Shown here piece by piece: positions 22,557-62,617 of a DNA stretch of 64,000 nucleotides. Position 1 is the first letter of the stretch. Every line of letters starts with the position of its first letter. The position numbers and the translations under genes are program-made. Source of the DNA: Candidatus Yanofskybacteria bacterium (lineage in GTDB: Bacteria > Patescibacteriota > Minisyncoccia > 2-02-FULL-40-12 > IGHO2-01-FULL-4-A); the NCBI GenBank assembly GCA_016181175.1, contig JACOZV010000001.1, positions 4,643 through 68,642 of the forward strand, in the 5' to 3' direction. The notes under the pieces are model-generated. The model saw only the letters and a program-made list of their open reading frames with translations, ran no database searches and was not told where the DNA came from.

Positions 22557-22565
22557 TTCATAATT

Positions 22566-22901: not shown

Positions 22902-22956
22902 TTTTACTAAAATCTACTGACTGCTGACTAAAGTTATTAACTTTAGAGCTTAGTCT

Positions 22957-24752: not shown

Positions 24753-24868
24753 GGTTTTACAATAAAGATTACTATTATAATTACTGGTTAAATTATTAAT
24801 TCTACTACTTATAAACATCTATTATAATTATTATTTATTTTAAAATCTAAATAATTATAATCAAAATT

Positions 24869-48957: not shown

Positions 48958-49866
48958 TTAGTAATCTTTTGTAGCCACTTCTAGAGTAGATAAAAATTCA
49001 TTTAATTCTTGTGGAAGGTCGGTTTCAGCCGTTAACGCTTCACCAGCCGGAGATACAAAAGACAGCTTTTGCGCATGTAGAAATAACCGTCCCAGCCCCG
49101 GGGGGCAGGTGTTGTTTTTGCCGGCATAAAGCGCATCACAAACAACTGGATGGCCAACTGATTTTAGATGAACGCGGATTTGGTGAGTGCGCCCAGTTTG
49201 CGGGGAAACTTCCAAGAGAGAATAACTCGCGGTGTGTAGCAAGTGGTAACTTAAAACTTTGTATTGGGTAATAGCTGATTTTTCTTTAAGTTCGTGTTTT
49301 CCGTGGACTTTGGTGGTTTGTCGGGTACTGCCTGTCCGGCCTGGAAGTTTAGCAAGCGGTGTTTCTATCACGCCGCTTTTGTTTTTGAGGTGGCCGTAGA
49401 CTAAGGCTAGATATGTTTTTTTAATTTTGTGTTCTTGAAAAAGTTTTTTAAAATAGTCAAAAGCTGATTGTGTTTTTGCAGCTAATAATAACCCAGAGGT
49501 TTCTCGGTCTAGACGGTGAACGATACCTGGCCTCAAATCCGTCCATTTATCCAGCACCAGTTTGGGCTCTTCCAAACTGGTGCTGGACGAGCCGACTCCT
49601 GTGCCATAGGGGTCGCATACACTGGCTACTTCCGGATATTTTTCCAAGAGCCAGCCGACCACGCTTTCACTTTTGTCCTGGCGATTAACGGGATGCGTCC
49701 CGTTAGAAGTAGCCTCGCCGAGGTCCTCCGGACTCGCGCCTTTGGCGCGAGCGAGACTTCTAACGGGATGCGTTAAAAGCCCAGCGGGTTTATCAATAAT
49801 TAAGAAATCGCGGTTTTCGTAAATAATTTTGATTCGAGCCATTAGGCTCGGTGTTGACTTTTCCAT
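48958..49866 (-). CDS. rluD: RluA-family 23S rRNA pseudouridine synthase, carrying an in-frame 25-aa insertion
   Basis: HRLDRETSGLLLAAKT catalytic Asp motif; FLIIDKPAGLLTHP; start set at MEKSTPSL (49866). Confidence 0.8.
   Translation of the reverse strand: MEKSTPSLMARIKIIYENRDFLIIDKPAGLLTHPVRSLARAKGASPEDLGEATSNGTHPVNRQDKSESVVGWLLEKYPEVASVCDPYGTGVGSSSTSLEEPKLVLDKWTDLRPGIVHRLDRETSGLLLAAKTQSAFDYFKKLFQEHKIKKTYLALVYGHLKNKSGVIETPLAKLPGRTGSTRQTTKVHGKHELKEKSAITQYKVLSYHLLHTASYSLLEVSPQTGRTHQIRVHLKSVGHPVVCDALYAGKNNTCPPGLGRLFLHAQKLSFVSPAGEALTAETDLPQELNEFLSTLEVATKDY
49686..49773. mobile_element. MITE-like GC-rich palindromic insertion inside rluA, flanked by a 13-bp direct repeat TAACGGGATGCGT
   Basis: Direct repeats at 49686-49698 and 49761-49773, 75 bp apart. 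Internal inverted repeats CGTTAGAAGT / ACTTCTAACG and a hairpin CTCGCGCC-ttt-GGCGCGAG. Confidence 0.5.
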
Positions 49867-49898
49867 AGTAAAGAATATTATGCGGCAATAATTGTGCT

Positions 49899-50915
49899 TT
49901 GACAAGTAAAAGAGGAATAATGATGCACAAAGGAAAAGCCAAGAGTTCCCAACTGATTCTTTATCCAGACGGGACACTTTATCATATAGACCTCAAACGT
50001 TCGGATAATATCCCGTTGAATATTTTCTTGGTTGGAGCGGCTGGACGTGTTGATGAAATTGCCAAATATTTTAACCAAGTAACTTTTTCACATCGCAACA
50101 AAGAGCGCCCCGAATTTTATATTGTATCAGGCATATATAAAGGCGTGTCAATGGCGGCTATGTCTATTGGTATAGGCGTGGCCAATGTTGAGATTGCACT
50201 CAATGAATTACATGCCCTTTTCGAATATGATCATGTGAAAGATTGCTGGAGCGGCGCGCCCGCTAAGGTAAATATCATCAGGGTAGGTACTGCCGGAACT
50301 ACATTGAAAGAAATTCCCATAGGGACGCTAGCAATTTCTTTTTACGGTTTAGGTTTGGATAATTTAGATAATTTTTATTGCTGTTACCGGTATTGTGATA
50401 GGCAATATCAGCTTTTAAAAAATATGGCAATAAGTTTGGAAAATGAATTTCAAAAAACTCAACTTGGAAAGCTCATCAAGTCCTCTTATGTTTCTCCTGC
50501 TGACCGTGAAATCGCTTGGGTGTTGAAAAATAAAGCCTGCGAGATTGATGAACTGGCAATGATTGCAGGCGGCATTACCCTTGCCTCACCCGGATTTTTT
50601 GGCCCTGAAGGCAGAGCAATCGGTCGTATACAGACCTTATTTACCCAGCATGATTTTGTTGAGACAATTTCAAATTTTGAAAGCCACGGTTTGAAGATTG
50701 TTAATATGGAAATGGAAACAAGCATTCTTTTCCGTCTTGCCAATGAAATACTCGGCTGGCGGGCGGGGGCGATTTGCGCGGTTTTGGATAATTTGCAAAC
50801 CGACGAGATGATCGATTCGGATTTTGCCAAAGAGCGGGTCCATGTTTGCATTAAGGTAGCGCTAGAAGCGATGGTTGCTTTGGTGAATAAACCAGTATTA
50901 ATACTAAAAAGTTAA
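49899..50915 (+). CDS. nucleoside phosphorylase family protein (PNP/UDP/MTAP fold)
   Basis: IIRVGTAGT and ME.E motifs typical of PNP_UDP_1; the start could be the MMHKG codons downstream. Confidence 0.5.
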   Translation: MTSKRGIMMHKGKAKSSQLILYPDGTLYHIDLKRSDNIPLNIFLVGAAGRVDEIAKYFNQVTFSHRNKERPEFYIVSGIYKGVSMAAMSIGIGVANVEIALNELHALFEYDHVKDCWSGAPAKVNIIRVGTAGTTLKEIPIGTLAISFYGLGLDNLDNFYCCYRYCDRQYQLLKNMAISLENEFQKTQLGKLIKSSYVSPADREIAWVLKNKACEIDELAMIAGGITLASPGFFGPEGRAIGRIQTLFTQHDFVETISNFESHGLKIVNMEMETSILFRLANEILGWRAGAICAVLDNLQTDEMIDSDFAKERVHVCIKVALEAMVALVNKPVLILKS

Positions 50916-51710: not shown

Positions 51711-51729
51711 TGTGGGCGCTGAGAGATTT
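51711..51729 (-). repeat. duplicate of the 3' end of tRNA-Val(TAC), 18/19 identity
   Basis: GTGGGCGCTGAGAGATTTG against GTGGGCGCTGAGGGATTTG at 51861-51879. Confidence 0.7.
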
Positions 51730-51861
51730 GCCTACGAATCAAATTTTCTTCCGAAAATTTGTTCACAGGCTGTCCCTCGCGGTTTTGCCTCCCAATTGTC
51801 GGCAAAACATCGCTGCGGTCTTCAAATCCTCACGCAAGCAAATAAATTTGCTTGCTAGCGG

Positions 51862-51934
51862 TGGGCGCTGAGGGATTTGAACCCCCGACTTCTTCCGTGT
51901 AAAGGAAGCACTCTGGCCACTGAGTTAAGCGCCC
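51862..51934 (-). tRNA. tRNA-Val (anticodon TAC)
   Basis: Acceptor GGGCGCT/AGCGCCC, loop TTTACAC, T-arm GGGGG-TTCAAAT-CCCTC. Confidence 0.85.
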
Positions 51935-52288: not shown

Positions 52289-54109
52289 TTAACTGACTAG
52301 CGCGTAGAACTCTTTTTGTTCAAGAGTTTCTTTTTCTATGAGTTTTCTGGCTATTTTTTCAAGAGTAGCCATTTTTTTGTTTATTATTTCCTGGGCTTTC
52401 TTAAGTCCTTTTGTAATAAAACTCTTAACCTCACCGTCTATTTGGAAGGCAATTTCGTTAGAATAATTTTTTTCGGTGCCGAGTTCTTTGCCGAGAAATA
52501 CCAGTTCTTCTTTTTCGCCAAAAGTTATTGGCCCCAATTTGTCAGACATGCCATATTGCGTGACCATTTTGCGTGCAAGTTCCGAAGCAACTTTTAAATC
52601 ATTTGAGGCACCAGTTGTTAGTTCATTAAATATTAATTTTTCTGCGGCGTAACCACCCAAAAGCACTGCCAATTCCGATTCAAATTCTGAACGCGATCGC
52701 AAGTGTTTGTCTTCGAGGGGTAATTTAAGTGTATATCCGCCGGCTCGTCCACGCGATACGATGGAAACTTTATGTATCGGATCGGTGTGCGGCAAGGCGG
52801 TGGCAACTAAAGCGTGGCCGGCTTCATGATAAGCGGCTATCTCTTTTTCTTTTTTGGTAAACACATGCGATCTTCGCTCCGGACCGAGCATGACTTTTTC
52901 GATTGATTGCAAAAGATTTTCTTGCGTGATCTCTTTTTGGTTTTTACGAGCGGCTAAAATTGCAGCTTCATTGAGCAAATTGGCCAAGTCTGCGCCTGAA
53001 AATCCCGGTGTGCGTTCAGAGACGACTTTTAGGTCGGTATTTTTGGCGAGTGGCTTATCCAGAGCATGTATGTGGAGTATTGCTTCACGGTCTTTCATGG
53101 ACGGCTCATCAAGTATTATGCGTCGGTCAAATCGTCCCGGACGTAACAATGCCGGGTCTAATATATCCGGTCGGTTAGTTGCTGCCATTACTATGACGGC
53201 ATCGTTTGTATCAAATCCATCCATTTCAACAAGTATTTGGTTGAGGGTTTGTTCGCGTTCATCGTGGCCGCCGCCAAGCCCTGCTCCGCGGTGTCGGCCA
53301 ACGGCGTCAATCTCATCAATGAAAACAATCGACGGCGCGGTTTTTTTAGCCACTTCAAAAGTATCGCGTACGCGGTTAGCGCCAACTCCCACAAACATTT
53401 CTACAAATTCAGAACCGGACACATAATAAAAAGGAACCCCAGCTTCATTAGCCACTGCCTTGGCAAGTAAAGTTTTGCCTGTACCTGGTGATCCTACAAG
53501 TAGTACTCCTCTAGGAATGCGAGCGCCTAGTTTTTGGAATTTCTTGGGATCACGCAAAAACTCCACAACTTCAGTAATTTCTTCTTTAGCTTCTGTAAGT
53601 CCAGCCACGTCACCAAAAGTAACTTTCTTTTTGCCGTTGCCGTCGTTGCCAGCTAGACGCGCCTTAGTTTTTCCGAAAGTAAAAGCAGACATTGATCCCC
53701 GTTGAGCTTGGCGGAACATGAACCAAAACAAAAAGACAACCAAAAGGAACGGAAGAACTATTGGCAAAAAGTTCACAATATAGAATCCGAATCCCGATTC
53801 ATTTTTTACATCCAGACTAACTTTGGTTAACTTATCTTTTTCAGTACCCAGGTTTATCAGGGTATCGCTAACTGATGAGCCGGCTTCTTTTTTGGATGTT
53901 TCCTTTTTGCTGTCATTAAGCACTATATCTAGTTTTTCTCCGCGCACAGTAACTTCCTTAACTTGGCCTTGGTTTATTTGGTTAACCAGGGTAGTCAGTG
54001 AAATTTCGTTATTTTCTTGAGAAAGAGGTGAGCGTATAATCGCGACAAAACCTGATATAACCAAAAATATCAGGAAAACGATAAGGACATATTTAATTAA
54101 TGATTTCAT
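52289..54109 (-). CDS. ftsH: ATP-dependent zinc metalloprotease FtsH
   Basis: AAA Walker A GSPGTGKT, Walker [10 protein letters not shown], second region of homology, HEAGHAL zinc motif; start set at MKSLIKYVL. Confidence 0.92.
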
Positions 54110-54165
54110 AATTAAAAGTACTTTAACATTAAAATTTAAAAGATTCAAGCTGCCATTGACTTTTA

Positions 54166-54174
54166 TGGTATAAT
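54166..54174 (+). promoter_or_regulatory. extended -10 promoter element TGGTATAAT upstream of the island's first gene
   Basis: Read directly; about 45 nt upstream of the ATG at 54221, and divergent from ftsH. Confidence 0.4.
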
Positions 54175-54220
54175 TTGATAACATTAAGAAAGTAAGTTCG
54201 TTCACAACTAAGGAGTTAAT

Positions 54221-55255
54221 ATGAATTCACAGATGGGCTTGCAGGTAGCCCAAACGACTTGCGATCAGGAAGCGGTGGTGTCGCGCAAACGGCAACGCGT
54301 GCGCGGCACCACCAAAACGAGAAAACAAGTTCCACAAACCCACTCCCGCCGTCGTTACCTAAGGATGGCCATTGGTTTCACTCACGAGATAGTTGAAGGC
54401 TATCTTGAGCGTTGGCGAAAGGAAGTCCAAGTCTGGGTTGGTCGGGAGAAGAAGTGGGTTTCTGCTGAGCAGGCCGATCCTGATCAGCAGGTAACGGATC
54501 GGAATACCGGACAGTCGTGCTATCGTCAGGTTCGGTTAACTGACGAAGACGGTTTTCCGACGGAACGGTGGGTAGAAACTGGCCGATACCCGTCTATCCC
54601 AACAGTGATTAGGTTTGAGAAGGGTGCGCCCCTTCCAAACATAATCAAAACAGCAACACCGCGAGAGCAACGACACCATTCTGATCAGTGTGCCGGCGGA
54701 TTCCGGTTCTTTTATGTCGAGCCGCCAAAACCGTCTCGGCCGTCGATTCAGTGGATTCCGGCCAGTGATACAGAAAAGCGGCGAGAGTTTTTGAAAAGTT
54801 TGCCGCAAGCTTCGCCGGAAATCCAAGCCATCCTCAACAATCCGCCCGAACCAGAACCTGTCCCAGAGCAGTGGTTCCGGGTAGATCTTCCGGAGGTTGC
54901 CATGCAGGACAACCAATGGGAAGAAGGCGGATATGAGGAAGACCCTCCGCCGGATGCGAGGGTAAACTTTCCCCAGGGCTGGTGCTGCAAGCTCGTCCAA
55001 CAGCCGAAGTTTAACTTCGGCGTGATCGCTGACCCCAACTGGATATACGTCCAGTTGCCTTTCCATTATTGGTCCTGGGATTACGAGCGTAAAACCGGTC
55101 GTCCGAAACAAGTTTTCAGGACTGATAGTGCCGGTGGGCGGAACGGAAGTGTGGAATGTGGCATCTGGATTCCACGCTGGTTGCTGGTACCCATCAATAC
55201 CAGAGAAGCCCGTGAAATCTTTGACCTGCTTGAACAGCAGGTCAAAGAGCAATAA
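54221..55255 (+). CDS. hypothetical protein (GC-rich, Trp/Pro/Glu-rich)
   Basis: SD AAGGAG 7 nt upstream; local GC about 55-58%. Confidence 0.4.
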
Positions 55256-55403
55256 CTTACGAAAGGCAAGACCGGCAAATTGCCCAACGTTTTTCACCCC
55301 CCGCTTGCGGTCAGCGGGGTTTTTATTGCTTGACGCAATGTTTATTAAATGATACAATATAACTTCGTTGTTGTTTTACAATTGTATTACAAGGAGAGAG
55401 AAA

Positions 55404-56798
55404 ATGCCCAGTTTAAGAATCAAAGGTCTTGGAGGTATTAATGAAATTGGAGCCTCATCTGCCCAAATTGAATTTCCGGATATTAACCGGAATATTCTTA
55501 TTGATTCCGGTGTCCGCATGGTTAATAACCGTGGTTATAACGGTGGTCTAGTAAGACGAACCGAGGGCCACGCTTTACCAGACGTGAGAATTGACAGTGT
55601 CCTGATTACTCACGGACACAGTGATCATCATGGTAATTTGCCTCGCCTTTGGCCGGGAATTATTGCGGCCAATCCCGAGGCTAAGGTCTTTATGACCAGA
55701 CCTACTTTTTATATCGCTGGTAATCTCTGGTTCAACACCTCTTTCTTAATGGCCAATGGAAAGATCAGCGTTGATTTGGATTATGAGGCCAATTTTACCG
55801 AAGGTATGAGGATGATTCTCGAACAGGCGGGGAAGAACCTGGTTACAAAACCCGGCTGGACGGAAATTTTCCCCGGCGTTGAAGCGTATTTCGGTCCCAA
55901 TGGGCATATCAGGGGATCGGCGTTCATTGTTGTGCGAGCCAATGGTAAGCTAGTGATGTTTTCGGGCGACATATCGGTTTACGATAGCCCGACAGTTAAA
56001 GGCATGAAGGTGCCGGAAGAATTTATCGGCAAACTTGATGCAATTTTTGTTGAAGCAACATATGGTGATCGCGTGTTGATACCGCGATCGGAAGAAGAAG
56101 ACAGAATGGCATATCTGGCGAAGGAAACCATTGGTCGGGGAGGAATATGCCTGGCTCCGGCATTTGGAGTCGGCCGTAGTCCTGATGCCGTTCTAGCGCA
56201 AGAGATAAGAGGAGTTGCACCCCTATATGTTGATGGCATGGGGAGGGACTCACTCGATATTTGCGCAGATCCAAAAAAAGGATTCTGGTGTGAGCTGGAT
56301 CATCTGTCTGATGTTGATTTGTCCGCATCAGGAATAAAGTACGTAGGAAATAGCGGTGAGCGCAAAGATTTAATTTACGAGGGGAGCGGATTTAGTGTGG
56401 TAACAACCGCCGGAATGATAGTTGAGGGCAGTTGTGCCTATCAATACGCTACCCGAAACGGTTTTCTACGAGATAGTTTTAACCGGTTGCTTTTAACCGG
56501 CTACCAGGCCGAGAATACTGAGGGGCGAGAGATAGAAGAGGGCGTCTCGGTGGGAAGGCCGATTCATTTAGGGGGTCGGTTGATACAAGTTCAGGCCGAT
56601 GTGCCGCCGCGATTACAGCTTTCTTCACACGCCGACGGTCTGCAAATAGCTGATATTGTTAAAACCCTTCAGCCCAAAAAAGTTTTTATCAATCACGGTA
56701 AAGATAGCGGCCGTGAGGGGCTGAAGCACAATCTTGAGTCTCTTGGTTTTGGTGGAGACGTATACTTACCCCGAAATGGGGACGTGATTGAAATTTAA
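55404..56798 (+). CDS. metallo-β-lactamase-fold nuclease with β-CASP-like motifs (RNase J/CPSF-like)
   Basis: HGHSDHHG (HxHxDH) at LITHGHSDHHGNL; later SSHAD and NHG motifs resembling β-CASP motifs B and C; SD GGAGAGAG upstream of the ATG at 55404. Confidence 0.55.
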   Translation: MPSLRIKGLGGINEIGASSAQIEFPDINRNILIDSGVRMVNNRGYNGGLVRRTEGHALPDVRIDSVLITHGHSDHHGNLPRLWPGIIAANPEAKVFMTRPTFYIAGNLWFNTSFLMANGKISVDLDYEANFTEGMRMILEQAGKNLVTKPGWTEIFPGVEAYFGPNGHIRGSAFIVVRANGKLVMFSGDISVYDSPTVKGMKVPEEFIGKLDAIFVEATYGDRVLIPRSEEEDRMAYLAKETIGRGGICLAPAFGVGRSPDAVLAQEIRGVAPLYVDGMGRDSLDICADPKKGFWCELDHLSDVDLSASGIKYVGNSGERKDLIYEGSGFSVVTTAGMIVEGSCAYQYATRNGFLRDSFNRLLLTGYQAENTEGREIEEGVSVGRPIHLGGRLIQVQADVPPRLQLSSHADGLQIADIVKTLQPKKVFINHGKDSGREGLKHNLESLGFGGDVYLPRNGDVIEI

Positions 56799-56867
56799 AT
56801 TAAAACCGGCTTAATATAGCCAAAGCCCTTGTTTAATCTCACTGTTTGCCGCCAAGGCATAGTGGGA

Positions 56868-56896
56868 TTGACAAGGGTTTTTTAATTTGCTATAAT
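56868..56896 (+). promoter_or_regulatory. consensus σ70 promoter (TTGACA, 17 nt, TATAAT)
   Basis: TTGACA 56868-56873, 17-nt spacer, TATAAT 56891-56896; about 210 nt upstream of the ATG at 57113. Confidence 0.7.
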
Positions 56897-57112
56897 TAAG
56901 CAATAAGATAGAAAACAGGTAGGAACCTTTAAAACACACTTTTTAAAACTATTTTTAAGAGGGTTGCGGGAGTAAGCAAAGCGAATACAAAAATGGTGAG
57001 TAAATTTGCGTTCGGTTTGCTTATTCTCGTACCTTACCGGGAACCGGTGTGCGGGGGTTTGCGATCCAGTTCTTAATTTTGTTGAAGAACTGGGTCTCCT
57101 CGAGGAGATACC

Positions 57113-58243
57113 ATGTATAACAAGTACAATTCTCGTAGGCGCGATCCGCGCCAGACGCTTCCGACCGTTTTTCCCGCGAACTTAGAGTTTCGCGGGATGA
57201 ATGGAACGATCAACCTACAGTCGGCAGATGAGGCTGCTCACAAGGCCTTCTTCGCAAACTTGAAAAAGATTGATGAGGGAACGTTACGTGAGTCCGTAAG
57301 TCAGGCCGGCGAAGTGTTCGATGTCGAACGGCTCAAGACCGTTCTCAAGACCGGAGAAACCTTGTTCGCCGGCTACGAGCTGGACGGGCCACAGCGTGAC
57401 TGTGGTATTTGCGGAACGACGTTCCAGCCTGTCCGGATCCAGTTCCTTCACAAGGATCAGACGCCAGGGGTCGGGGGGAACTTTGCCACCCTGAAAGTCG
57501 AAACTCTCAAAGAGCTAATCAGCAAGGGTGGAGAGTTGGCGGAGCTTGTGAAGTCGTTGTCCGATGCGATGACGACGGAGGTAATGGGCAACGAGCCCGT
57601 ACCTTCCCACGCGAAGCTACTTCCGGTATGCAAGGAGTGTCGGGGCATGCTTCAAGACCGGTTCGGAGTTCCAACTTTCGCGCTGGAAACAGCGCGAGAG
57701 GGATTGCTTGGCGCCAACAAGAGGATTGGTGTGGTGGCGAACAGATCTGCTGTAGCCGAAATCCTGGAGCGTTATCAACGACCCACCAATCGCCCGGTCG
57801 GATCCGGCCCCAGTAATGGCCGCCGGTATGATCGGGATCCCCGCGATTACGGTCGCAATGGTCGTGATCAAAGGGAACAGAGGCCGAGAGTCAACTGGTT
57901 CGGAGCTTCTTTGGAAGAGCCGACGGCCAAGGCTCTGACGGCAGCCGGTTACTCCAACCTGGCCGACGCGCTTGCCGATGCCGAATCTGGCAAGCTTGTT
58001 GACAAGGGGATCGCTCACCCCGGCTCGATCGGGCCGATCACATTCGTCCTCAAGCGGGCGAGTGAGGGTCGGCAAGTTGTCGGCCAAGCGGCGGCAGTCG
58101 TTTCCTCTCGGCAGGGGATCGTGCAGGAAGCTCCGGGAGCTAAGCCTGCCAGGAAGACGACCCGGAAGAAGACGCTCACTGCTCCCAAGCCGTCGGCGCG
58201 TTCCAGAGGCAACGGGATTGAGATCTCTAGCCTCCGTGACTAG
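57113..58243 (+). CDS. hypothetical protein with CxxC...CxxC zinc-ribbon-like pairs and an HhH-like segment; Arg/Gly/Pro-rich middle
   Basis: DCGICGTTF ... CKECRG; LTAAGYSNLADALAD HhH-like; GC about 58%; SD GAGGAG. Confidence 0.4.
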   Translation: MYNKYNSRRRDPRQTLPTVFPANLEFRGMNGTINLQSADEAAHKAFFANLKKIDEGTLRESVSQAGEVFDVERLKTVLKTGETLFAGYELDGPQRDCGICGTTFQPVRIQFLHKDQTPGVGGNFATLKVETLKELISKGGELAELVKSLSDAMTTEVMGNEPVPSHAKLLPVCKECRGMLQDRFGVPTFALETAREGLLGANKRIGVVANRSAVAEILERYQRPTNRPVGSGPSNGRRYDRDPRDYGRNGRDQREQRPRVNWFGASLEEPTAKALTAAGYSNLADALADAESGKLVDKGIAHPGSIGPITFVLKRASEGRQVVGQAAAVVSSRQGIVQEAPGAKPARKTTRKKTLTAPKPSARSRGNGIEISSLRD

Positions 58244-58272
58244 GAATAGCTAGAACTTCCTAGTCACATAAT

Positions 58273-58330
58273 CCGTCCCGAGAGCGTCAGCAAAATATTG
58301 CTGACGCTCTCGGGCGGTTTTTTTATTTAT
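58273..58330 (+). terminator. strong rho-independent terminator (18-bp stem, T-run of 9)
   Basis: CCGTCCCGAGAGCGTCAGC-aaaatatt-GCTGACGCTCTCGGGCGG TTTTTTTATTTAT. Confidence 0.85.
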
Positions 58331-58360
58331 AAATCCCAGAAAGTGAATAAGCAATTTAGA

Positions 58361-58390
58361 TTGACACGATAACAATTTTAATGGTATTAT
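58361..58390 (+). promoter_or_regulatory. σ70-like promoter (TTGACA, 18 nt, TATTAT)
   Basis: Read directly upstream of the NUDIX gene. Confidence 0.55.
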
Positions 58391-58436
58391 TAATCTAGCG
58401 GATTGCCTCCGCCAGTTCCTTAACAGGAGGTGGCTC

Positions 58437-59192
58437 ATGCCAACACAAGAGTCATTACAAAGGTCAAGAAAAAAAGGATTTTTACTAAGACGAGCCGCTG
58501 AAAAAGAAGCGCGTCTAGATGGAAAATCTGGGGCCATAAATAAAGAATTAATTTTGAGTACAGCCCAAGACTTCAATTGTTCCCTTAAACCAGAAAGTGC
58601 CAGTGATATGGCTAAGGTTCTGAAGCTGGAACAAGAATATTTTGAAAATGCTATGACTTCGGCGGAATTGGAATGTTTTTCACGCCAAACCGTTGTGGGT
58701 ATTGGCCAGTATTTTTCGAGAGGTAAGAGGAAGGGTTATGTCCTCGTTTTGAACGAGTTCAAGAGGATGTTCCCGGACAACGAAGAATTTGGTTTGGGCT
58801 TTCCTGGCGGTAGAGTTAGGATAGGCGAATCACCGCATGCCAGACTTCAAAAAGAGAGTCCCGAAGAAACTGGACTGATTTGTGAAGTTTTAAATTCCGA
58901 TCGGCCTCCGGTGGCGGAACACAAAGTTGGCGAAGAAGAACATCTTTTTTCTGCCTACGAAGTGAAGTATGTAGGTGGTAGGCCAAGACCTGCTCCAACC
59001 AAGGATGAGCCAATTACGGCAATCGTTTTTGTTGATGAGGAAACCCTGCAGAATGTTTGTAAGACCAACGGGCGACTCAGGATAAAAATCGAAAAAAAAG
59101 AGCTAATCGTAGGTATTTTACCAAACCACAGACGGGTTTTCTTGAAGTATTTGCATATGAAAGAAGCGTGTGGGGGAGGGAAAAATGTATAA
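58437..59192 (+). CDS. NUDIX hydrolase with an N-terminal extension
   Basis: NUDIX box GGRVRIGESPHARLQKESPEETGL (G-x5-E-x7-[RK]E-x2-EE-x-G-hydrophobic); SD AGGAGG. Confidence 0.6.
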   Translation: MPTQESLQRSRKKGFLLRRAAEKEARLDGKSGAINKELILSTAQDFNCSLKPESASDMAKVLKLEQEYFENAMTSAELECFSRQTVVGIGQYFSRGKRKGYVLVLNEFKRMFPDNEEFGLGFPGGRVRIGESPHARLQKESPEETGLICEVLNSDRPPVAEHKVGEEEHLFSAYEVKYVGGRPRPAPTKDEPITAIVFVDEETLQNVCKTNGRLRIKIEKKELIVGILPNHRRVFLKYLHMKEACGGGKNV

Positions 59193-60060
59193 CTTTCCGG
59201 AGCAATTAGCCCTCTTACAAAAATTGGGTGTAAATTGGATAAGGGTTTACAAAATTTCCAATGAAAAAACTTTTCCCGGCGATAAACTGGTTGGAGGTGT
59301 CGAACTGCCAGTGCAGAACGATCAAGGGCTTATCGTTAGCTACGATGCTAAACTGAAAACAACCTTCGTTTTGGCTGTTGAAGTTAAGCATAATGTTGAT
59401 CTTCTTATGGTTTGGACCGAGGGTAGTGACCGAAGAATTAGAATTCTTCGGGGTGAGACGCCAGATGATACCAGGACGGCATTTTATGCCAAGCGTATTC
59501 CTACTGACAAGACATTATGCGGGGAATATGTTACCAAGAGTAACGACAGACAGGGAAACAGTGTTTGGGCAATATCTACTGCTGACAGCCGACTTCGTAT
59601 GTGGGAAATAGCCATTGTAACAGTTGTGGTTGGCGGCCGCTCTCAATATTTTATATCGTTGCAGGAAGTTTATACGGCAGCAATGTTTACGGCCAATGGC
59701 GACATCTACGTTCCCGAAGAGGAATTTCCGGGCTACAAAGACTGGGAGAGTTTGCAGGTATTGCTTAATACAAGAACCGACCCTTTTTTTCTTAGACCGC
59801 TTTCTGAATACCAAAAACAGGCTGAGAAAATTAATGAAGCGGAAGTCGTGAACGGTAACCAGGCAAGAATTCTATGGTTTAATCAGGCCAGGGGTTTCGG
59901 TTTTGCAGAGATTCCCGGTGAAGAACAGAACCCGATTTTTCATAGGACATCGGTTGAAGATCAAATATTTCCCGCATTCAAACCAGGTCAAATTATAAAA
60001 TATGCTCGTATTGAGCGTACGCCCAAAGGAGTACAGTTGAGAGGCGTATCAGAGGTTTAG
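59185..60060 (+). CDS. protein with a C-terminal cold-shock domain
   Basis: ARILWFNQARGFGFAEI, the RNP1-like CSD core, followed by FHRTSV...F..G..I.Y; SD GGGAGGG before the ATG at 59185. Confidence 0.5.
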   Translation: MYNFPEQLALLQKLGVNWIRVYKISNEKTFPGDKLVGGVELPVQNDQGLIVSYDAKLKTTFVLAVEVKHNVDLLMVWTEGSDRRIRILRGETPDDTRTAFYAKRIPTDKTLCGEYVTKSNDRQGNSVWAISTADSRLRMWEIAIVTVVVGGRSQYFISLQEVYTAAMFTANGDIYVPEEEFPGYKDWESLQVLLNTRTDPFFLRPLSEYQKQAEKINEAEVVNGNQARILWFNQARGFGFAEIPGEEQNPIFHRTSVEDQIFPAFKPGQIIKYARIERTPKGVQLRGVSEV

Positions 60061-60085
60061 CCGGTTTAGTCAATTTTTAATTATT

Positions 60086-60158
60086 TCCCGTTGCTCGCGT
60101 ATCGCGCGAGCAACGGGATTTTTATTACTAAAACTCCCGCGTTACGCGGGAGTTTTAG
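60086..60158 (+). terminator. tandem pair of rho-independent terminators
   Basis: CCCGTTGCTCGCG-tatcg-CGCGAGCAACGGG TTTTTATT, then AACTCCCGCG-tta-CGCGGGAGTT TTAG. Confidence 0.8.
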
Positions 60159-60283
60159 TAAGAGATTTTAATTCGATTTTAGTTTGTTTTCTGTTGTATG
60201 TTTTTTTAGTTTTATGTATTTGCACCGGTTTTAATTTAATCGGTCCCCGCGAGATTTTAATACTTGGGGGTCGGGTGATTTTT

Positions 60284-61507
60284 TTACTGGACATTTTTTT
60301 GTATCCCGTACGAGACAGAGGCACGCTGTGTGCCCTCGCGGTCTCGTTTGGGATGTATCGTAAGCAAGATTTTGTGATCTGAAATATCAATTGAGATTAT
60401 AGCTACGTAAATTTCATCGCCGATCTTAAACATTTCTGTGGGCTTGGTTTCGCCAAATTCGGAATTTGGTAGGAGGCCGGCAATTTCATCATCAAGCTTA
60501 ACCCAAACTCCGTAAGGTGTCATTTTTACAATATGGCCGGAGACTGTTTGGCCAACTTGGTATTTTTCTTCAATTTTTTCCCAGGGATTTGTTTTAAGCG
60601 CCTTGAGAGACAGGGAAACTTTGTTGCCATCAATGCCGATTATTTTTGCTTTTATTTTTTGTCCAGTTTGTAAAAAATCTCGCGGATTCTCTACTAGCTT
60701 CCAATCGATTTCGGATATGTGTATTAAACCCTCAACTTCACTTATCGGTTTACTATTTTCTTCTTGCAAGAGTTCTGGTTGTTGTGATGCCTCAATTTTT
60801 GAACTATCTTCCGACGGTAGTGTGATCAACGCGAAAGCTCCGAAATCAGTTACATCGGTAATTTTGGCATCTACTATGTCGCCAATTTTAAATTTGCTTA
60901 ACTCTTCTTTAAGTTGGGCGTCGTTAATTGCTTTTTCTGAAACAATCAGCTTGTTCTCATCTTCTGAAAAATCTATAATTTTAACTTGTATTTCTTGATT
61001 GCGTAATTTTTGCAGTGCCTGGACGATTTTGGTTGTGTCGCCACCTTCAACCTTAGGATAGTGTTCGGACGACAGTTGTGATAAGGGCAAGAAACCCTGA
61101 ATGCCGTCAATTTCTACAATTAGGCCGCCTTTGTTAATGTTCGCAATTTTAGTGGTGATAATTTCTCCATCATCTCTTTTTTTCTTGATATCTTCCCAGG
61201 CAGTTGTCATCTGTGCACGCTTGAGTGACAATTCACGGTAGCCGTCCTCATTTTCAAGATCCAACAAAATAGTTGAAACCGTCTGGCCGGGCTTAAGTGT
61301 TTTTTGTAAATTCGGATTGTCATAAAATTCTCCCGGGTAAACAACGCCAGTGCCTAGTGGACCCAAATCAATCATCACTGCATTTTTGCTTGCACTTAAA
61401 ACTTCCCCGGTCATTACCGCGCCCATTTTGGGCAAATCAAAACCAGACTTTGCAAGCAAGTCCTTCATGGAGAACCCCTCACCGTTAATTTGAGCACCAA
61501 TTTCCAT
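60284..61507 (-). CDS. rpsA: 30S ribosomal protein S1 (four S1 domains)
   Basis: Repeated S1 motifs (G.V.G.V......G..V.L..G..G..H.SE). Confidence 0.8.
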   Translation of the reverse strand: MEIGAQINGEGFSMKDLLAKSGFDLPKMGAVMTGEVLSASKNAVMIDLGPLGTGVVYPGEFYDNPNLQKTLKPGQTVSTILLDLENEDGYRELSLKRAQMTTAWEDIKKKRDDGEIITTKIANINKGGLIVEIDGIQGFLPLSQLSSEHYPKVEGGDTTKIVQALQKLRNQEIQVKIIDFSEDENKLIVSEKAINDAQLKEELSKFKIGDIVDAKITDVTDFGAFALITLPSEDSSKIEASQQPELLQEENSKPISEVEGLIHISEIDWKLVENPRDFLQTGQKIKAKIIGIDGNKVSLSLKALKTNPWEKIEEKYQVGQTVSGHIVKMTPYGVWVKLDDEIAGLLPNSEFGETKPTEMFKIGDEIYVAIISIDISDHKILLTIHPKRDREGTQRASVSYGIQKNVQ

Positions 61508-61578: not shown

Positions 61579-62214
61579 ATGACTATTACTTGGTACGGAC
61601 AATCATGTTTTAGACTTGAATCCAAAGGAACGAGCATCCTAATTGACCCGTTTTCTAAAGAAATCGGTCTTCGGCCGCCACGTTTGAATGACCCAATTTT
61701 TTTAGTTACTCATGAGCATTATGACCACAACAACACAAAAGAAGTGCCTGGAGAATCCTTTATAATCCGTGGCCCCGGAGAATATGAGAAATCCGGCATC
61801 CATTTCGAGGGTATTATGTCGTATCATGATAATGTTCAAGGGACACAGCGTGGTTTGAATACTTTATATGTTATCAGAATAGAAGATATGCGACTGTGCC
61901 ATTTAGGAGATCTTGGACAAGCCAAGCTAACAGATGAGCAAATTGAGCAAATCGGTGATGTTGACATTCTCTTCATTCCTGTTGGTGGAAAGTATACAAT
62001 TGATGGTAAGGAAGCCGCGGAAATAGTTAAGCAAGTTGAGCCCAAAATTATTATCCCAATGCATTACAAAGTTCCCGGCTTGAGTATTGATATAGAAAGT
62101 TCGCAGAAGTTTTTAAAAGAGATAGGCATACAACCAGAAGAAGTCGAAGAATATAGGATAACTGTTAAGAATTTACCTACGGAGGAAATTAAATTAGTAA
62201 CTTTCAAGTTATAA
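61579..62214 (+). CDS. MBL-fold metal-dependent hydrolase (small, Lactamase_B_3-like)
   Basis: LIDP; VTHEHYDHNN (HxHxDH variant); downstream His/Asp. Confidence 0.6.
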   Translation: MTITWYGQSCFRLESKGTSILIDPFSKEIGLRPPRLNDPIFLVTHEHYDHNNTKEVPGESFIIRGPGEYEKSGIHFEGIMSYHDNVQGTQRGLNTLYVIRIEDMRLCHLGDLGQAKLTDEQIEQIGDVDILFIPVGGKYTIDGKEAAEIVKQVEPKIIIPMHYKVPGLSIDIESSQKFLKEIGIQPEEVEEYRITVKNLPTEEIKLVTFKL

Positions 62215-62218
62215 ATTT

Positions 62219-62617
62219 ATGAGAAGCGTTTTAGAAGAAATCCGCCAACAGCCAGAACACATAAGGCATATGTTTATGTGGCTTTGTGTAATTATCGCTT
62301 TTTCTACGGTTGGTTTTGTTTGGTTCCGTTCAACAAGCAAACAGTTTGTGGCTTTGATGCATCCCGAGGAAGCGCAAGAACGAGCGTTGGCTGAAAAGGA
62401 AAAAACCCTTCAACAAGGGCTTCGACTGAGCACAGCCGAACGTCCTCAGGGCAAGCAGCCGTCACCGTTTGCGACCATTTTTGACTCCTGGCGTAACCTT
62501 CAGGCAAACATTTCAGAGTTGTTTGTGGGATCGGAATCAAACTTGGAGATAAATAATAATGAGACGGGAAGCGTAAAAATAGAATTACCGCCACAAAAAC
62601 TGCCAATTTCACAATAA
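62219..62617 (+). CDS. membrane-anchored hypothetical protein
   Basis: One N-terminal TM; no recognisable motif. Confidence 0.3.

What the first reader, a model, noticed from the sequence alone, without database searches (positions are those of the whole stretch)
54166..60160. GC-rich, promoter- and terminator-dense island encoding a β-CASP nuclease, NUDIX hydrolase, cold-shock-domain protein and two unknown proteins
Directly after ftsH the composition shifts from about 40% to about 50-58% GC. I counted 35 G or C in the 60 nt at 57121-57180. Five plus-strand genes follow, each with a strong Shine-Dalgarno sequence: a 344-aa Trp/Pro-rich unknown; an MBL-fold protein with HGHSDHHG plus β-CASP-like SSHAD/NHG motifs; a 376-aa protein with two CxxC pairs, an HhH-like segment and an RG-rich region; a NUDIX hydrolase; and a protein ending in a canonical cold-shock domain. 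The island has its own consensus σ70 promoters (56868-56896, 58361-58390), an 18-bp-stem terminator (58273-58330) and tandem terminators at its end. In Bacillus-type mRNA decay, a NUDIX RNA pyrophosphohydrolase and a β-CASP RNase J act together, and CSD proteins are RNA chaperones. The set could therefore be a horizontally acquired RNA 5'-end processing and degradation module. It could equally be an uncharacterised nucleic-acid-targeting defence cassette. None of the proteins is a close match to a named enzyme by the motifs I can see.
Basis: partly seen in the sequence, partly recalled or inferred. Interest (0 to 1): 0.7.

Follow-up and report, generated by a model that had tools for sequence, protein, structure and literature searches.

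The report
Conserved RNA-decay gene cluster, oddly GC-rich
This is not a recently imported island but a five-gene cluster inherited at one chromosomal site in a small group of uncultured ultra-small (CPR) bacteria; it probably trims and degrades RNA from the 5' end, and two of its genes, of unknown function, are kept unusually GC-rich with strongly folded mRNAs in every relative examined.

Summary
The five plus-strand genes, their ribosome-binding sites, two near-consensus promoters and the strong terminators are real. The domain calls hold: a β-CASP nuclease, a Nudix hydrolase and a C-terminal cold-shock domain.

The "GC-rich island" is not uniform. Only P1 (GC3 0.56) and P3 (GC3 0.65) are outliers against a window mean of 0.37. 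P2 is marginal, and P4 and P5 are normal.

Horizontal acquisition is not supported. The genes sit at the same site (ftsH | cluster | rpsA-MBL-gyrA) in more than 10 related Parcubacteria contigs, down to 31-35% protein identity. There is no integrase and no att repeats.

P1 and P3 are GC3-rich in nearly every relative (0.60-0.83 against backgrounds of 0.27-0.50) although third positions are near saturation. Their mRNAs fold far better than synonymous shuffles (z about -4 to -8), so selection seems to act on composition or structure.

The β-CASP is the KH-less CPSF73/aCPSF type, not RNase J. The closest solved relative of the Nudix is the RNA pyrophosphohydrolase BdRppH, and its orthologues in two outgroup lineages are fused to ribosomal protein bS21.

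P3 has an invariant promoter and a 24-bp leader hairpin, 19 of whose pairs show compensatory changes.

Best reading: a lineage-specific 5'-end-dependent RNA decay or processing module. The roles of P1 and P3 and the reason for their GC-richness are unexplained.

The parts
54110..54220 (+). Divergent ftsH-P1 intergenic region with the P1 promoter (extended -10 TGGTATAAT at 54166-54174) and Shine-Dalgarno AAGGAG
   Evidence: Sequence read and scan. The true ftsH start is inferred at 54109 (MKSLIKY) by comparison with the ftsH N-termini.
54221..55255 (+). P1: 344-aa protein of unknown family, with a basic disordered N-terminus and a Trp-rich C-terminal domain. GC3 is 0.557 and the mRNA is hyper-structured.
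   Evidence: No Pfam, PHROG, NCBIfam, PADLOC or PDB match. Only 5 hits in 5.8 billion clusters, one of them the window's own protein. Alignment A3. Coding signature d3>d1>d2. Fold z -5.2 to -6.4. The AF2 model is poor, pLDDT 52.
54274..54313 (+). GC-rich hairpin inside the 5' part of the P1 coding sequence. Window, L003 and L016 have it at the same alignment position with different sequences.
   Evidence: (alignment A9) and sequence. Weak statistics: noted, not proven.
55299..55327 (+). Intrinsic terminator after P1
55330..55358 (+). P2 promoter-like site (TTGACG-17-TACAAT with upstream TG)
55404..56798 (+). P2: KH-less CPSF73/aCPSF-type β-CASP metallo-β-lactamase ribonuclease with all catalytic motifs
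   Evidence: Pfam RMMBL, Lactamase_B and Beta-Casp. NCBIfam aCPSF1 1.7e-41 and Cas14 1.3e-32, both far below cut-off. PDB best hits are archaeal CPSF, FttA, CPSF3 and INTS11. Motif residues are invariant in 8 homologues.
56868..56896 (+). P3 promoter, a perfect sigma-70 consensus with an extended -10, conserved in all 11 loci compared
56965..57031 (+). Conserved 24-bp hairpin in the roughly 210-nt 5' UTR of P3. It matches no Rfam family.
   Evidence: 19 of 24 pairs have compensatory changes. 95.3% of cells pair, against 39-50% in slid controls, with 0 of 500 shuffles reaching the observed values. Covariance model R1 finds exactly one copy per locus, always upstream of P3 and better on the + strand. 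No Rfam hit.
57113..58243 (+). P3: 376-aa protein of unknown family. It has an N-terminal domain with a CxxC...CxxC zinc-ribbon-like motif, an RG-rich disordered linker, a helix-hairpin-helix-like domain, a basic tail and a conserved C-terminal peptide. GC3 is 0.650 and the mRNA is hyper-structured.
58277..58324 (+). Strong intrinsic terminator after P3 (17-bp stem plus T run)
58361..58390 (+). P4-P5 promoter (TTGACA-18-TATTAT with upstream TG)
58437..59192 (+). P4: Nudix hydrolase with an intact Nudix box (the R of REUxEE is K here) and a roughly 95-aa N-terminal extension. The closest solved relative is the RNA pyrophosphohydrolase BdRppH.
   Evidence: Pfam NUDIX 2.4e-7. NCBIfam YtkD 4.5e-5, below cut-off. 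PDB 3ees 8e-5 for the single sequence and 3.5e-10 for the family profile. 3FFU is listed as an RNA pyrophosphohydrolase in PMC5389931. Alignment A6.
59185..60060 (+). P5: unknown roughly 225-aa N-terminal domain plus a C-terminal cold-shock domain. Its start codon overlaps the P4 stop by 8 nt (AATGTATAA).
   Evidence: CSD hits. Alignment A7. The same 8-nt overlap is seen in L003, L008, L010 and L017 (coordinates).
60086..60161 (.). Tandem terminators closing the cluster. The second (60125-60161, 18-nt perfect arms) lies between the convergent P5 and rpsA-like genes.

Best explanation
A vertically inherited, lineage-specific gene cluster of a small clade of Parcubacteria (CPR), labelled Colwellbacteria or Yanofskybacteria in NCBI records. 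It most likely encodes a 5'-end-dependent RNA processing and decay machine.

Proposed mechanism (inferred, not shown):
- The Nudix enzyme P4 converts 5'-triphosphate or 5'-diphosphate RNA ends to 5'-monophosphate.
- P5, which is translationally coupled to P4, supplies single-stranded-RNA binding through its cold-shock domain.
- The CPSF73/aCPSF-type β-CASP nuclease P2 then cuts the 5'-monophosphorylated RNA and/or degrades it 5'->3'.
- In two outgroup lineages the Nudix orthologue is fused to ribosomal protein bS21, and in all loci the cluster adjoins the S1 gene. This points to action on mRNA at the 30S subunit.
- P1 and P3 are new, basic, probably nucleic-acid-binding proteins. Their role is unknown; adaptor or scaffold is a guess.

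What is shown about P1 and P3:
- P3 is expressed from an invariant strong promoter, through a leader with a covariation-supported 24-bp hairpin. That hairpin is a likely site of post-transcriptional control.
- Their high GC content is not a mark of foreign origin. It is a conserved, apparently selected property of these two genes, and it comes with mRNAs that fold much more stably than synonymous shuffles.
- The purpose of that property is open. Nuclease resistance, translational control and a second function at the RNA level are all possible.
For: Synteny.
- ftsH(-) | P1 P2 P3 P4 P5 | rpsA-like S1(-), or the same set with the P4-P5 pair inverted, is found in L003, L008, L010, L007, L016, L017 and L018.
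- The set without P1 is found in L014 and L019.
- Protein identity to the window falls to 31-35% across these loci.
- The flanks S1, Lactamase_B_3, small protein and gyrA are shared.
- P2 and P3 identities fall together from locus to locus, as vertical descent predicts.
- The window is chromosomal and close to dnaA and dnaN.

Enzymes.
- P2 keeps every MBL and β-CASP catalytic residue across 8 homologues.
- Its best matches are the archaeal CPSF proteins and FttA, CPSF3 and INTS11.
- aCPSF1 has endonuclease activity and a 5'-3' exonuclease activity on 5'-monophosphate substrates, and the KH-less aCPSF2 group has 5'-3' exonuclease activity (PMC3553952).
- P4's best solved relative is BdRppH (E 3.5e-10; identity of the entry). 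Its best NCBIfam model is the B. subtilis-type RNA deprotection pyrophosphohydrolase YtkD.
- The Nudix glutamates are invariant.
- The bS21-Nudix fusions score 62 and 38.7 bits against a Pfam cut-off of 27.
- P5 has a cold-shock domain.

Gene-specific GC.
- P1 and P3 are GC3-rich in nearly every relative: 0.60-0.83, except 0.43 in L019. Interleaved P2, P4 and P5 and the flanking genes stay at background.
- In L017 the figures are P1 0.67 and P3 0.74 against about 0.27 for the background.
- Codon-position divergence runs d3>d1>d2, with d3 at 0.53-0.68, close to saturation.
- G and C are both enriched at third positions, unlike the S1 and L19 genes.

mRNA structure.
- Against synonymous shuffles, fold z is -3.6 to -7.7 for P3 in nine loci and -0.2 in L019. 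For P1 it is -4.6 to -7.2 in four loci and about 0 in L007. For P2 it is -1.6 to -5.7.
- Thirty of 31 control genes fall within +/-2.7.
- The excess is larger on the sense strand.

Leader hairpin.
Against: - No activity or substrate has been measured. Nudix substrate specificity cannot be read from sequence, and P4 is far below the YtkD equivalog cut-off (23 against 154 bits).
- P2 is below every curated NCBIfam cut-off and lacks the KH domains of aCPSF1.
- The bS21 domain is not detectable in the window's own P4.
- Each gene or gene pair has its own promoter and terminator, so co-expression is not shown.
- P1 is absent from two outgroup loci.
- The cluster's linkage to ftsH and S1 could simply reflect low rearrangement in small genomes rather than shared function.
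- The P1 and P3 structure models rest on shallow alignments (5 and 9 sequences).
- Structure conservation indices in the coding regions are only 0.2-0.55. The excess folding is therefore mostly not positionally conserved, and its meaning is uncertain.
Confidence: 0.5

Rival explanations
1. Horizontally acquired genomic island. A GC-rich block was imported from a higher-GC donor and inserted next to ftsH.
For: The island is 48.6% GC against 40.4% for the rest of the window. P1 and P3 have GC3 0.56 and 0.65. The genes have their own promoters and terminators. The P1 and P3 families are rare.
Against: The cluster has the same position and flanks in more than 10 loci, down to 31-35% identity. The GC excess alternates gene by gene (P1 high, P2 normal, P3 high, P4 and P5 normal), and it does so in nearly every relative even though third positions are saturated. 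A transfer scar would cover the block and fade with time. There is no integrase, no att-like repeat and no tRNA at the boundary. No viral contig matched. An ancient transfer into the clade's ancestor cannot be excluded, but it would not explain the present composition.
Confidence: 0.05
2. Uncharacterised nucleic-acid-targeting defence cassette: a β-CASP nuclease effector with Nudix and RNA-binding partners.
For: Weak PADLOC hits: LmuA 0.0015 for P2 and PDC-S07 1.4e-4 for P4. P2 resembles the type VII CRISPR nuclease Cas14 (NCBIfam 1.3e-32; PDB 8yhd 2.1e-20). Two partners of unknown function evolve fast: P1 and P3 are 49-61% identical between loci where P2 is 78% identical.
Against: The locus is fixed between housekeeping genes near oriC, and the cluster is present in every related contig examined, whereas defence islands are patchy and variable. 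No CRISPR-like array lies in 51.5-62.5 kb. The Cas14 score is 113 bits against a cut-off of 800. The Nudix orthologue is fused to ribosomal protein bS21. There is no match to phage or defence families beyond noise.
Confidence: 0.07
3. Transcription-termination or RNA-polymerase-clearing 'torpedo' system. P2 would act like archaeal FttA/aCPSF1 on nascent RNA. P3, with its zinc-ribbon-like motif and HhH-like domain, and/or P1 would serve as polymerase or nucleic-acid adaptors. P4 would prepare 5' ends.
For: P2's top matches are aCPSF1/FttA (TIGR03675 1.7e-41; PDB 9bct 5.6e-24). β-CASP enzymes remove RNA polymerase in all three domains of life (review PMC8501993, listed). P3 has nucleic-acid-binding features and a conserved C-terminal peptide after a disordered tail, which is typical of a docking motif.
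Against: P2 lacks the N-terminal KH domains that define aCPSF1: the alignment covers only model positions 175-628 (PMC3553952). P3 has no detectable similarity to NusA, RpoA or Rho. The bS21 fusion and the S1 neighbour point to the ribosome rather than the polymerase. This rival overlaps with the best explanation and does not exclude it.
Confidence: 0.15
4. No joint function. The five genes are unrelated lineage-specific genes that stay adjacent only because these small genomes rearrange little. The GC and folding anomalies of P1 and P3 reflect a gene-specific mutational or recombinational bias, such as biased gene conversion, not selection.
For: Every unit has its own promoter and terminator. 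The P4-P5 pair is inverted relative to P1-P3 in five lineages, and P1 is missing in two. Flanking synteny (L19, pseudouridine synthase, ftsH, S1, gyrA) is also conserved.
Against: The recognisable members are all RNA-directed. The set survives inversions and an IS insertion as a group. The folding excess is measured against shuffles that keep codon content, so a pure compositional bias does not explain it, and it is stronger on the sense strand.
Confidence: 0.15

Closest known systems
5'-end-dependent mRNA decay in Bacillus subtilis (RppH/YtkD Nudix plus the β-CASP RNase J1). The E. coli counterpart is RppH plus RNase E.
   Same: The same enzyme logic: a Nudix RNA pyrophosphohydrolase-like protein together with a β-CASP ribonuclease. 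P4's best NCBIfam model is YtkD and its best solved relative is BdRppH.
   Different: The nuclease is not RNase J (20-25 bits against cut-offs of 400-820). In B. subtilis the two genes are not clustered (my own knowledge). Here they sit with three further genes: two new families and a cold-shock-domain fusion. P4 is far below the YtkD cut-off.
CPSF73-type β-CASP ribonucleases: archaeal aCPSF1/FttA, KH-less aCPSF2 (COG1236), Thermus TTHA0252, eukaryotic CPSF73 and INTS11
   Same: Full-length alignment to these proteins with all catalytic motifs. The architecture is core-only and about 460 aa, as in aCPSF2 and TTHA0252. JGI names close homologues 'Cft2 family RNA processing exonuclease'.
   Different: Only 25-35% identical to anything outside its own clade. 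There is a sharp drop from 43% to 35% and then to about 28%. It has no KH domains and scores below every curated cut-off.
Cas14, the β-CASP nuclease of type VII CRISPR-Cas
   Same: Sequence similarity over the nuclease core (NCBIfam 1.3e-32; PDB 8yhd 2.1e-20).
   Different: 113 bits against a cut-off of 800. There is no CRISPR array, no Cas5 or Cas7 gene, and the position is that of a fixed housekeeping locus.
Decapping-type Nudix enzymes with RNA-binding partners (Dcp2-Dcp1 followed by Xrn1; E. coli RppH-DapF)
   Same: A Nudix enzyme paired with an obligatorily co-expressed partner (P4-P5 start/stop overlap) and a 5'->3' nuclease. Dcp2 and Nudt16-like entries appear among the weaker hits.
   Different: The partner is an unknown domain fused to a cold-shock domain. 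No homology to Dcp1 or DapF was seen. The pairing is an inference from gene overlap only.
Autoregulatory 5' leaders of RNA-metabolism and ribosomal-protein genes (for example the rnc and pnp leaders, which are cleaved at long hairpins)
   Same: A long, covariation-supported hairpin in a roughly 210-nt leader downstream of a strong promoter.
   Different: No Rfam family matches. The binding or cleaving factor is unknown. L004, L005 and L010 have a different hairpin or a diverged version.

Membership tests
β-CASP metallo-β-lactamase nucleases | MBL motifs 1-4 (D, HxHxDH, H, D) and β-CASP motifs A (D/E), B (H) and C (H) | tested here: met
   D34, H70/H72/D74/H75, H168, D189, E217, H409 (SSHAD) and H431 (NHG) are invariant in 8 homologues. 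Pfam RMMBL scores 28.9 bits against a cut-off of 21.6, and Lactamase_B 26 against 22.7. Beta-Casp scores 22.4, below its cut-off of 27.7, in the window protein, but the domain is on record for close homologues.
RNase J | Passes the RNase J family models (TIGR00649, NF047419), with full-length similarity including the C-terminal domain | tested here: not met
   20.7 and 24.9 bits against cut-offs of 400 and 820. Only residues 5-83 align. The PDB RNase J hit 7wnt has E 3.8e-5 over residues 3-82 only.
aCPSF1 / FttA | Two N-terminal KH domains ahead of the MBL/β-CASP core (PMC3553952); passes TIGR03675 | tested here: not met
   142 bits against a cut-off of 580. The alignment starts at model position 175, after the KH region. 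P2 begins directly with the MBL domain.
KH-less CPSF-like β-CASP (aCPSF2 / COG1236 / TTHA0252 type) | Core-only architecture of about 420-460 aa with CPSF-type rather than RNase J-type similarity | tested here: met
   464 aa, no extra domains, full-length alignment to CPSF3, aCPSF and TTHA0252. JGI names homologues Cft2 family. Orthology to a particular subgroup was not tested by phylogeny.
Cas14 (type VII CRISPR) | Passes NF045584; associated with Cas5, Cas7 and a CRISPR array | tested here: not met
   112.9 bits against a cut-off of 800. No array-like repeats in 51.5-62.5 kb. Neighbouring genes are ftsH, S1 and the cluster itself.
Nudix hydrolases | Nudix box GX5EX7REUXEEXGU with the catalytic glutamates | tested here: met
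   GGRVRIGESPHARLQKESPEETGL: G-x5-E-x7-[K]E-x2-EE-x-G-L, with R replaced by K in the window. E140, E143 and E144 are invariant in 6 homologues. Pfam NUDIX scores 31.3 bits against a cut-off of 21.1.
RNA pyrophosphohydrolase (RppH / YtkD / BdRppH) | Hydrolysis of 5'-tri- or diphosphate RNA ends; membership of a curated RppH model | tested here: inconclusive
   The closest solved relative is BdRppH (profile E 3.5e-10; the next hit is 4.3e-6). YtkD is the best NCBIfam model but scores 23 bits against a cut-off of 154. Activity cannot be tested with these tools.
Cold-shock domain proteins | OB-fold CSD with RNP1 (K/R-G-F-G-F) and RNP2 motifs | tested here: inconclusive
   The window P5 scores 23 bits, below the Pfam cut-off of 27. 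The L017 orthologue scores 27.7. PDB CspB and CspD hits at 1.9e-5. RNP1 is present as RGFGFAE. RNP2 is degenerate (IFHRTSV).
Genomic island / integrated mobile element | Integrase or transposase, flanking direct repeats or a tRNA target, patchy distribution among relatives, block-wide compositional shift | tested here: not met
   No such genes among the ORFs. Only chance-level short repeats. Present at the same site in all related loci. The GC shift is confined to two genes.
Known anti-phage defence systems (PADLOC) | Significant match of the component proteins to a defence-system model set | tested here: not met
   Only LmuA at 0.0015 (a 50-residue MBL stretch) and PDC-S07 at 1.4e-4. P1, P3 and P5 have no hit.
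Rfam RNA families (for the P3 leader hairpin) | Match to a curated covariance model | tested here: not met
   No hit at gathering thresholds in the window and none in 54000-60400 at E<=1 that overlaps the leader.

The most novel reading that the evidence does not exclude
P1 and P3 are held at high GC, with hyper-structured sense transcripts, because their mRNAs do something beyond coding. They might be nuclease-resistant or chaperone-gated transcripts that form a feedback circuit with the cluster's own RNA-decay enzymes. Alternatively they might be RNA partners of the basic proteins they encode. On this reading the cluster would be a new kind of self-regulating ribonucleoprotein or RNA-decay system peculiar to this CPR clade. 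It would include two new protein folds, a ribosome-tethered (bS21-fused) RNA 5'-end pyrophosphohydrolase and a new leader RNA motif.
Probability: 0.2. Interest if true: 0.8.

Novelty: new variant of a known kind. Interest (0 to 1): 0.55.

Why it matters
RNA turnover in CPR/Patescibacteria is essentially unstudied. These organisms have minimal genomes, so a conserved five-gene investment is unlikely to be idle. The cluster links a CPSF73-type nuclease, an RppH-like Nudix and a cold-shock-domain protein. That suggests the 'deprotect the 5' end, then degrade 5'->3'' strategy is built here from different parts than in Bacillus or E. coli.

The bS21-Nudix fusions in the outgroups give a testable hint that 5'-end deprotection is coupled to the ribosome.

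Separately, two genes hold GC3 at 0.6-0.8 for as long as the clade has existed, in genomes whose background has drifted to 0.27. This is a clean natural case of sustained non-coding selection, or of a very local bias, on synonymous sites. It bears on the long-running question of what maintains GC content in bacterial genes.

It also warns that GC deviation alone is not evidence of horizontal transfer.

Tried and rejected
- Overlapping antisense gene as the cause of high GC3. The 273-aa antisense ORF in P1 (54536-55357) is not kept as one ORF in L003. The few stops in the codon-aligned antisense frame follow from codon usage alone. Rejected.
- P1 and P3 as non-coding RNA mis-called as genes. 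Rejected. Codon-position divergence is d3>d1>d2, the reading frames stay open, and homologues differ by in-frame indels.
- Translational selection for optimal codons. Rejected. G and C are both enriched at third positions, whereas the S1 and L19 genes are G3-poor.
- A positionally conserved large RNA structure in the coding regions. Structure conservation indices are only 0.2-0.55. Not supported, apart from local hairpins.
- Viral or plasmid origin. No viral-contig match for P2, no BFVD fold match for P3, and PHROG hits only to a generic MBL family.
- Homology among P1, P3 and the P5 N-terminal domain. None found.
- Domain fusions in distant P3 relatives. None found.
- bS21 remnant in the window's own P4 N-terminus. 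Not detectable.
- Genome-collection scans. They recovered only 2 species representatives and one metagenome locus, so the co-occurrence statistics rest on about a dozen loci.
- Literature searches. No paper was found on this cluster, on bS21-Nudix fusions or on GC3 anomalies in Patescibacteria.
- The one control gene with excess folding. This is the pseudouridine synthase ORF at 48958-49977 (z -5.5). It does not repeat in four orthologues.

Full report
**What is in the sequence**

The region 54.1-60.2 kb holds five plus-strand genes between a divergent ftsH (52289-54109, minus strand) and a convergent S1-domain rpsA-like gene (60284-61507, minus strand). They are:
- P1, 54221-55255
- P2, 55404-56798
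- P3, 57113-58243
- P4, 58437-59192
- P5, 59185-60060

The scan found a perfect TTGACA-17-TATAAT promoter at 56868-56896 and an 11-of-12 promoter at 58361-58390. It also found intrinsic terminators at 55299-55319, 58277-58314 (17-bp stem) and 60086-60118, followed by a second perfect hairpin at 60125-60161. Terminator-like sites are enriched (23 against 11.7 +/- 2.8). The count of promoter-like sites is not (18 against 13.8 +/- 4.2). P1, P2, P3 and the pair P4-P5 therefore look like four separate transcription units.

**Composition**

The island is 48.6% GC against 40.4% for the rest of the window, and no other window of the same size exceeds 45.0%. The excess is carried by two genes:

| Gene | GC3 |
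|---|---|
| P1 | 0.557 |
| P2 | 0.437 |
| P3 | 0.650 |
| P4 | 0.377 |
| P5 | 0.404 |
| 49 other genes | mean 0.374, sd 0.056, max 0.477 |

I score the observation "partly confirmed" for this reason. Every feature is there, but "GC-rich island" describes only P1 and P3.

**Identity of the proteins**

- **P2** is a metallo-β-lactamase/β-CASP protein (Pfam RMMBL, Lactamase_B and Beta-Casp).
  - Its best curated-model matches are archaeal aCPSF1 (1.7e-41) and Cas14 (1.3e-32). Both are far below their cut-offs. RNase J models match only the first 80 residues or so.
  - Solved relatives are the archaeal CPSF proteins, FttA, CPSF3, INTS11, Cas14 and Thermus TTHA0252.
  - All catalytic residues are invariant in eight homologues.
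  - It lacks the N-terminal KH domains that define aCPSF1. Architecturally it is like the core-only aCPSF2/COG1236 group. Both groups are reported to have 5'-3' exoribonuclease activity, and for aCPSF1 that activity acts on 5'-monophosphate substrates (PMC3553952).
- **P4** is a Nudix hydrolase with an intact Nudix box.
  - A profile of six orthologues hits PDB 3ees/3ffu at 3.5e-10; the next hit is at 4.3e-6.
  - 3FFU is listed as the Bdellovibrio RNA pyrophosphohydrolase in PMC5389931.
  - The best NCBIfam model is YtkD, the B. subtilis-type RNA deprotection pyrophosphohydrolase, though far below its cut-off.
- **P5** has an unknown N-terminal domain of about 225 aa and a C-terminal cold-shock domain.
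  - Its ATG overlaps the P4 stop by 8 nt. The same overlap occurs in L003, L008, L010 and L017, which suggests translational coupling.
- **P1 and P3** match no family in Pfam, PHROGs, NCBIfam, PADLOC or the PDB.
  - P3 aligns as follows: an N-terminal domain with CxxC...CxxC, a long helix, an RG-rich disordered linker, a helix-hairpin-helix-like domain, a basic tail and a short conserved C-terminal peptide. The HhH assignment is my reading of the motif and the predicted helices.
  - The P1 model was unusable (pLDDT 52).
  - Both families are tiny. P1 gave 5 hits among 5.8 billion clusters, one of them the window's own protein. P3 gave 9 hits, again one of them its own, and 36 representatives among 1.84 billion proteins.

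**Host and context**

NCBI names for identical proteins place the contig in Candidatus Colwellbacteria or Yanofskybacteria, which belong to the Parcubacteria (CPR). The window also holds yidC, dnaA, dnaN, nusA, tig and ten tRNAs. It is therefore chromosomal and lies about 30 kb from the replication origin.

**The cluster is inherited, not imported**

Every related contig I could recover shows the same neighbourhood:
- L003 (GCA_040961665.1): L19, pseudouridine synthase, HAD, ftsH(-), then P1-P5.
- L008 (GCA_041643275.1) and L010/L015 (a Hainich groundwater MAG): the same order. L010 continues into S1, Lactamase_B_3, a small protein and gyrA, as the window does.
- L007, L016 and L017/L018 (Yanofskybacteria GCA_002794035.1): ftsH(-), P1, P2 and P3, then the P5-P4 pair inverted, then S1.
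- L014 and L019, the more distant loci: they keep β-CASP, P3, Nudix, a P5-like gene and S1 next to ftsH, but lack P1. L019 has an IS481-family transposase inserted.

Identities to the window fall in parallel for P2 and P3, for example 78% and 61% in L003, then 55% and 35% in L007. No integrase, att-like repeat or bounding tRNA exists. The condition for horizontal acquisition fails.

**The GC anomaly is a conserved property of P1 and P3**

In nearly every relative, P1 and P3 are GC3-rich while the interleaved P2 and the P4, P5 and flanking genes follow the local background:

| Locus | P1 GC3 | P3 GC3 | Comparison in the same locus |
|---|---|---|---|
| L003 | 0.72 | 0.73 | P2 0.53 |
| L007 | 0.73 | 0.74 | P2 0.42 |
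| L010 | 0.71 | 0.78 | P2 0.46 |
| L014 | absent | 0.83 | background about 0.45 |
| L017 | 0.67 | 0.74 | P2 0.32; background about 0.27 |
| L019 | absent | 0.43 | background about 0.23 |

- Both are genuine coding genes. Differences per codon position run d3>d1>d2, for example 0.56, 0.30 and 0.25 for P3 between the window and L003.
- Third positions are close to saturation (0.53-0.68), yet their G+C content is held.
- G and C are both enriched at third positions, unlike in the S1 and L19 genes. Ordinary translational selection is therefore unlikely.
- An antisense or alternative-frame gene is not supported. P3 does show a consistent depletion of off-frame stops in the +2 frame and of TA dinucleotides.

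**The mRNAs are unusually structured**

I compared the mean minimum free energy of 120-nt windows with shuffles that keep the protein and the codon counts.
- In the window, z is -5.2 for P1, -5.5 for P2, -5.8 for P3, -3.4 for P4 and -0.9 for P5.
- Thirty of 31 control genes across the window and the loci fall within about +/-2.7.
- The single exception is the window's pseudouridine synthase ORF, and it does not repeat in four orthologues.
- For P3 the excess recurs in nine loci (z -3.6 to -7.7) and is absent only in L019, whose P3 is also the least GC-rich.
- The excess is larger on the sense strand than on the antisense strand, as expected for an RNA-level effect.
- Structure conservation indices in codon alignments are modest, 0.2-0.55. 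What is kept is mostly "structuredness", not one fold. One possible exception is a hairpin early in the P1 coding region that changes sequence but keeps its position in three loci.

**A new leader RNA element**

- The P3 promoter (TTGACA-17-TGnTATAAT) is present in all 11 loci compared.
- About 60-130 nt downstream of the inferred start site lies a hairpin at window 56965-57031.
- In eight sequences, 19 of its 24 pairs show compensatory double changes.
- 95.3% of cells pair, against 39-50% when the partners are slid. None of 500 shuffles reaches the observed values.
- A covariance model finds exactly one copy per locus, always upstream of P3, and it scores higher on the plus strand.
- No Rfam family matches it.
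- L004, L005 and L010 have a different or diverged hairpin.

**The ribosome hint**

In L014 and L019 the orthologous Nudix protein carries an N-terminal ribosomal protein bS21 domain. It scores 38.7 and 62.3 bits against a Pfam cut-off of 27. bS21 sits on the 30S platform near the mRNA 5' side and the anti-Shine-Dalgarno region (my own knowledge). The domain is not detectable in the window's P4. I found no paper describing such a fusion.

**Interpretation**

Shown:
- a conserved cluster
- an RNA-type β-CASP with intact catalytic residues
- a Nudix whose closest solved relative is an RNA pyrophosphohydrolase
- a cold-shock-domain partner with start/stop overlap
- bS21 fusions in the outgroups
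- the gene-specific GC3 and folding excess
- the leader hairpin

Inferred: P4 (with P5) deprotects RNA 5' ends, and P2 then cuts or degrades the monophosphorylated RNA. This is the logic known from RppH plus RNase J1, built here with a CPSF-type nuclease. P1 and P3 are accessory nucleic-acid-binding proteins, and the leader hairpin mediates feedback. I put this at about 0.5.

A termination or torpedo role for P2 overlaps with this reading (0.15). "No joint function" gets 0.15, defence 0.07 and recent transfer 0.05.

Why P1 and P3 are held GC-rich and structured is unexplained. Candidates are resistance to the cluster's own nuclease, chaperone-gated or temperature-gated translation, or an RNA-level role for the transcripts.

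**Limits**

- The comparison rests on about a dozen loci from metagenome assemblies.
- Taxon labels are those of the depositors and disagree with one another.
- The structure models used shallow alignments.
- No expression or activity data exist.
- One structural library (afdb50) was unavailable.

Noticed in passing
window 21480-25966: yidC (-), dnaA (23216-24586) and dnaN (24869-25966) lie here. The window's GC minimum (0.27-0.30) and the minimum of cumulative GC skew are also here, so this is the likely replication origin. dnaN has an extremely low GC3 of 0.148 against a window mean of 0.374, the opposite extreme to P1 and P3.
   Followed up: partly
L014:4357-5181 (-) and L019:9685-10425 (-): The Nudix orthologue of the cluster is fused to an N-terminal ribosomal protein bS21 domain (Pfam 38.7 and 62.3 bits against a cut-off of 27). 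I found no literature on such a fusion.
   Followed up: partly
window 51712-51730 and 51861-51879: A 19-nt copy (95% identical) of the 3' end of tRNA-Val(tac) lies 149 nt from the tRNA gene, on the far side of ftsH from the cluster. It could be the scar of an old integration at the tRNA. Nothing lies between the two copies.
   Followed up: no
window 48958-49977 (-): The pseudouridine synthase ORF is the only control gene with excess mRNA folding (z -5.5). The excess is not seen in four orthologues. Only residues 146-272 of the listed ORF match the Pfam domain, so the real start is probably further downstream.
   Followed up: partly
window 54274-54313 (inside P1): A GC-rich hairpin lies 50-90 nt into the P1 coding sequence. 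L003 and L016 have 11-12-bp hairpins of different sequence at the aligned position.
   Followed up: partly
window 57113-58243 and P3 genes of 8 other loci: Stop codons in the +2 frame of P3 are fewer than in synonymous shuffles in 7 of 9 loci (for example 2 against 9.2 in L014). TA dinucleotides are also depleted (z -3.8). No conserved alternative ORF was found.
   Followed up: partly
L019:6526-7404 (-): An IS481-family transposase (rve domain) is inserted between the β-CASP gene and the P3-like gene in this distant relative. The rest of the neighbourhood is kept. An RF-1-domain (ArfB-like) gene sits next to S1.
   Followed up: no
L004:2075-2157, L005:2035-2119, L010:4091-4177: These three loci keep the P3 promoter. 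In L004 and L005 the common leader hairpin is replaced by a different one (GGGCTGGG.../...CCCAGCTC type), and in L010 it is a diverged version that the covariance model does not detect.
   Followed up: no
window 61579-62617, with L007, L010, L014, L016, L017 and L019: Downstream of S1, a Lactamase_B_3 metal-dependent hydrolase (211 aa), a small protein of about 115-130 aa with a hydrophobic N-terminal segment, and (in the loci) gyrA are conserved in the same order. They are part of the same stable neighbourhood.
   Followed up: no
window 57085-57112: Just upstream of the P3 start, the Shine-Dalgarno GAGGAG is directly preceded by its complement CTCCTC and by a 9-bp hairpin (CCAGTTCTT/AAGAACTGG). 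This may sequester the ribosome-binding site.
   Followed up: no
protein names: Depositor taxonomy is inconsistent. Proteins from the same contig are labelled Candidatus Colwellbacteria (P0001, P0010) and Candidatus Yanofskybacteria (P0049). L016 is labelled Candidatus Saccharibacteria although it shares the full synteny.
   Followed up: no
L009:706-1605 and L010:188-1087 (-): In these Hainich groundwater contigs an extra 299-aa gene of unknown function lies upstream of P1. In L009 it sits between ftsH and P1; in L010 ftsH is not within the fetched segment.
   Followed up: no
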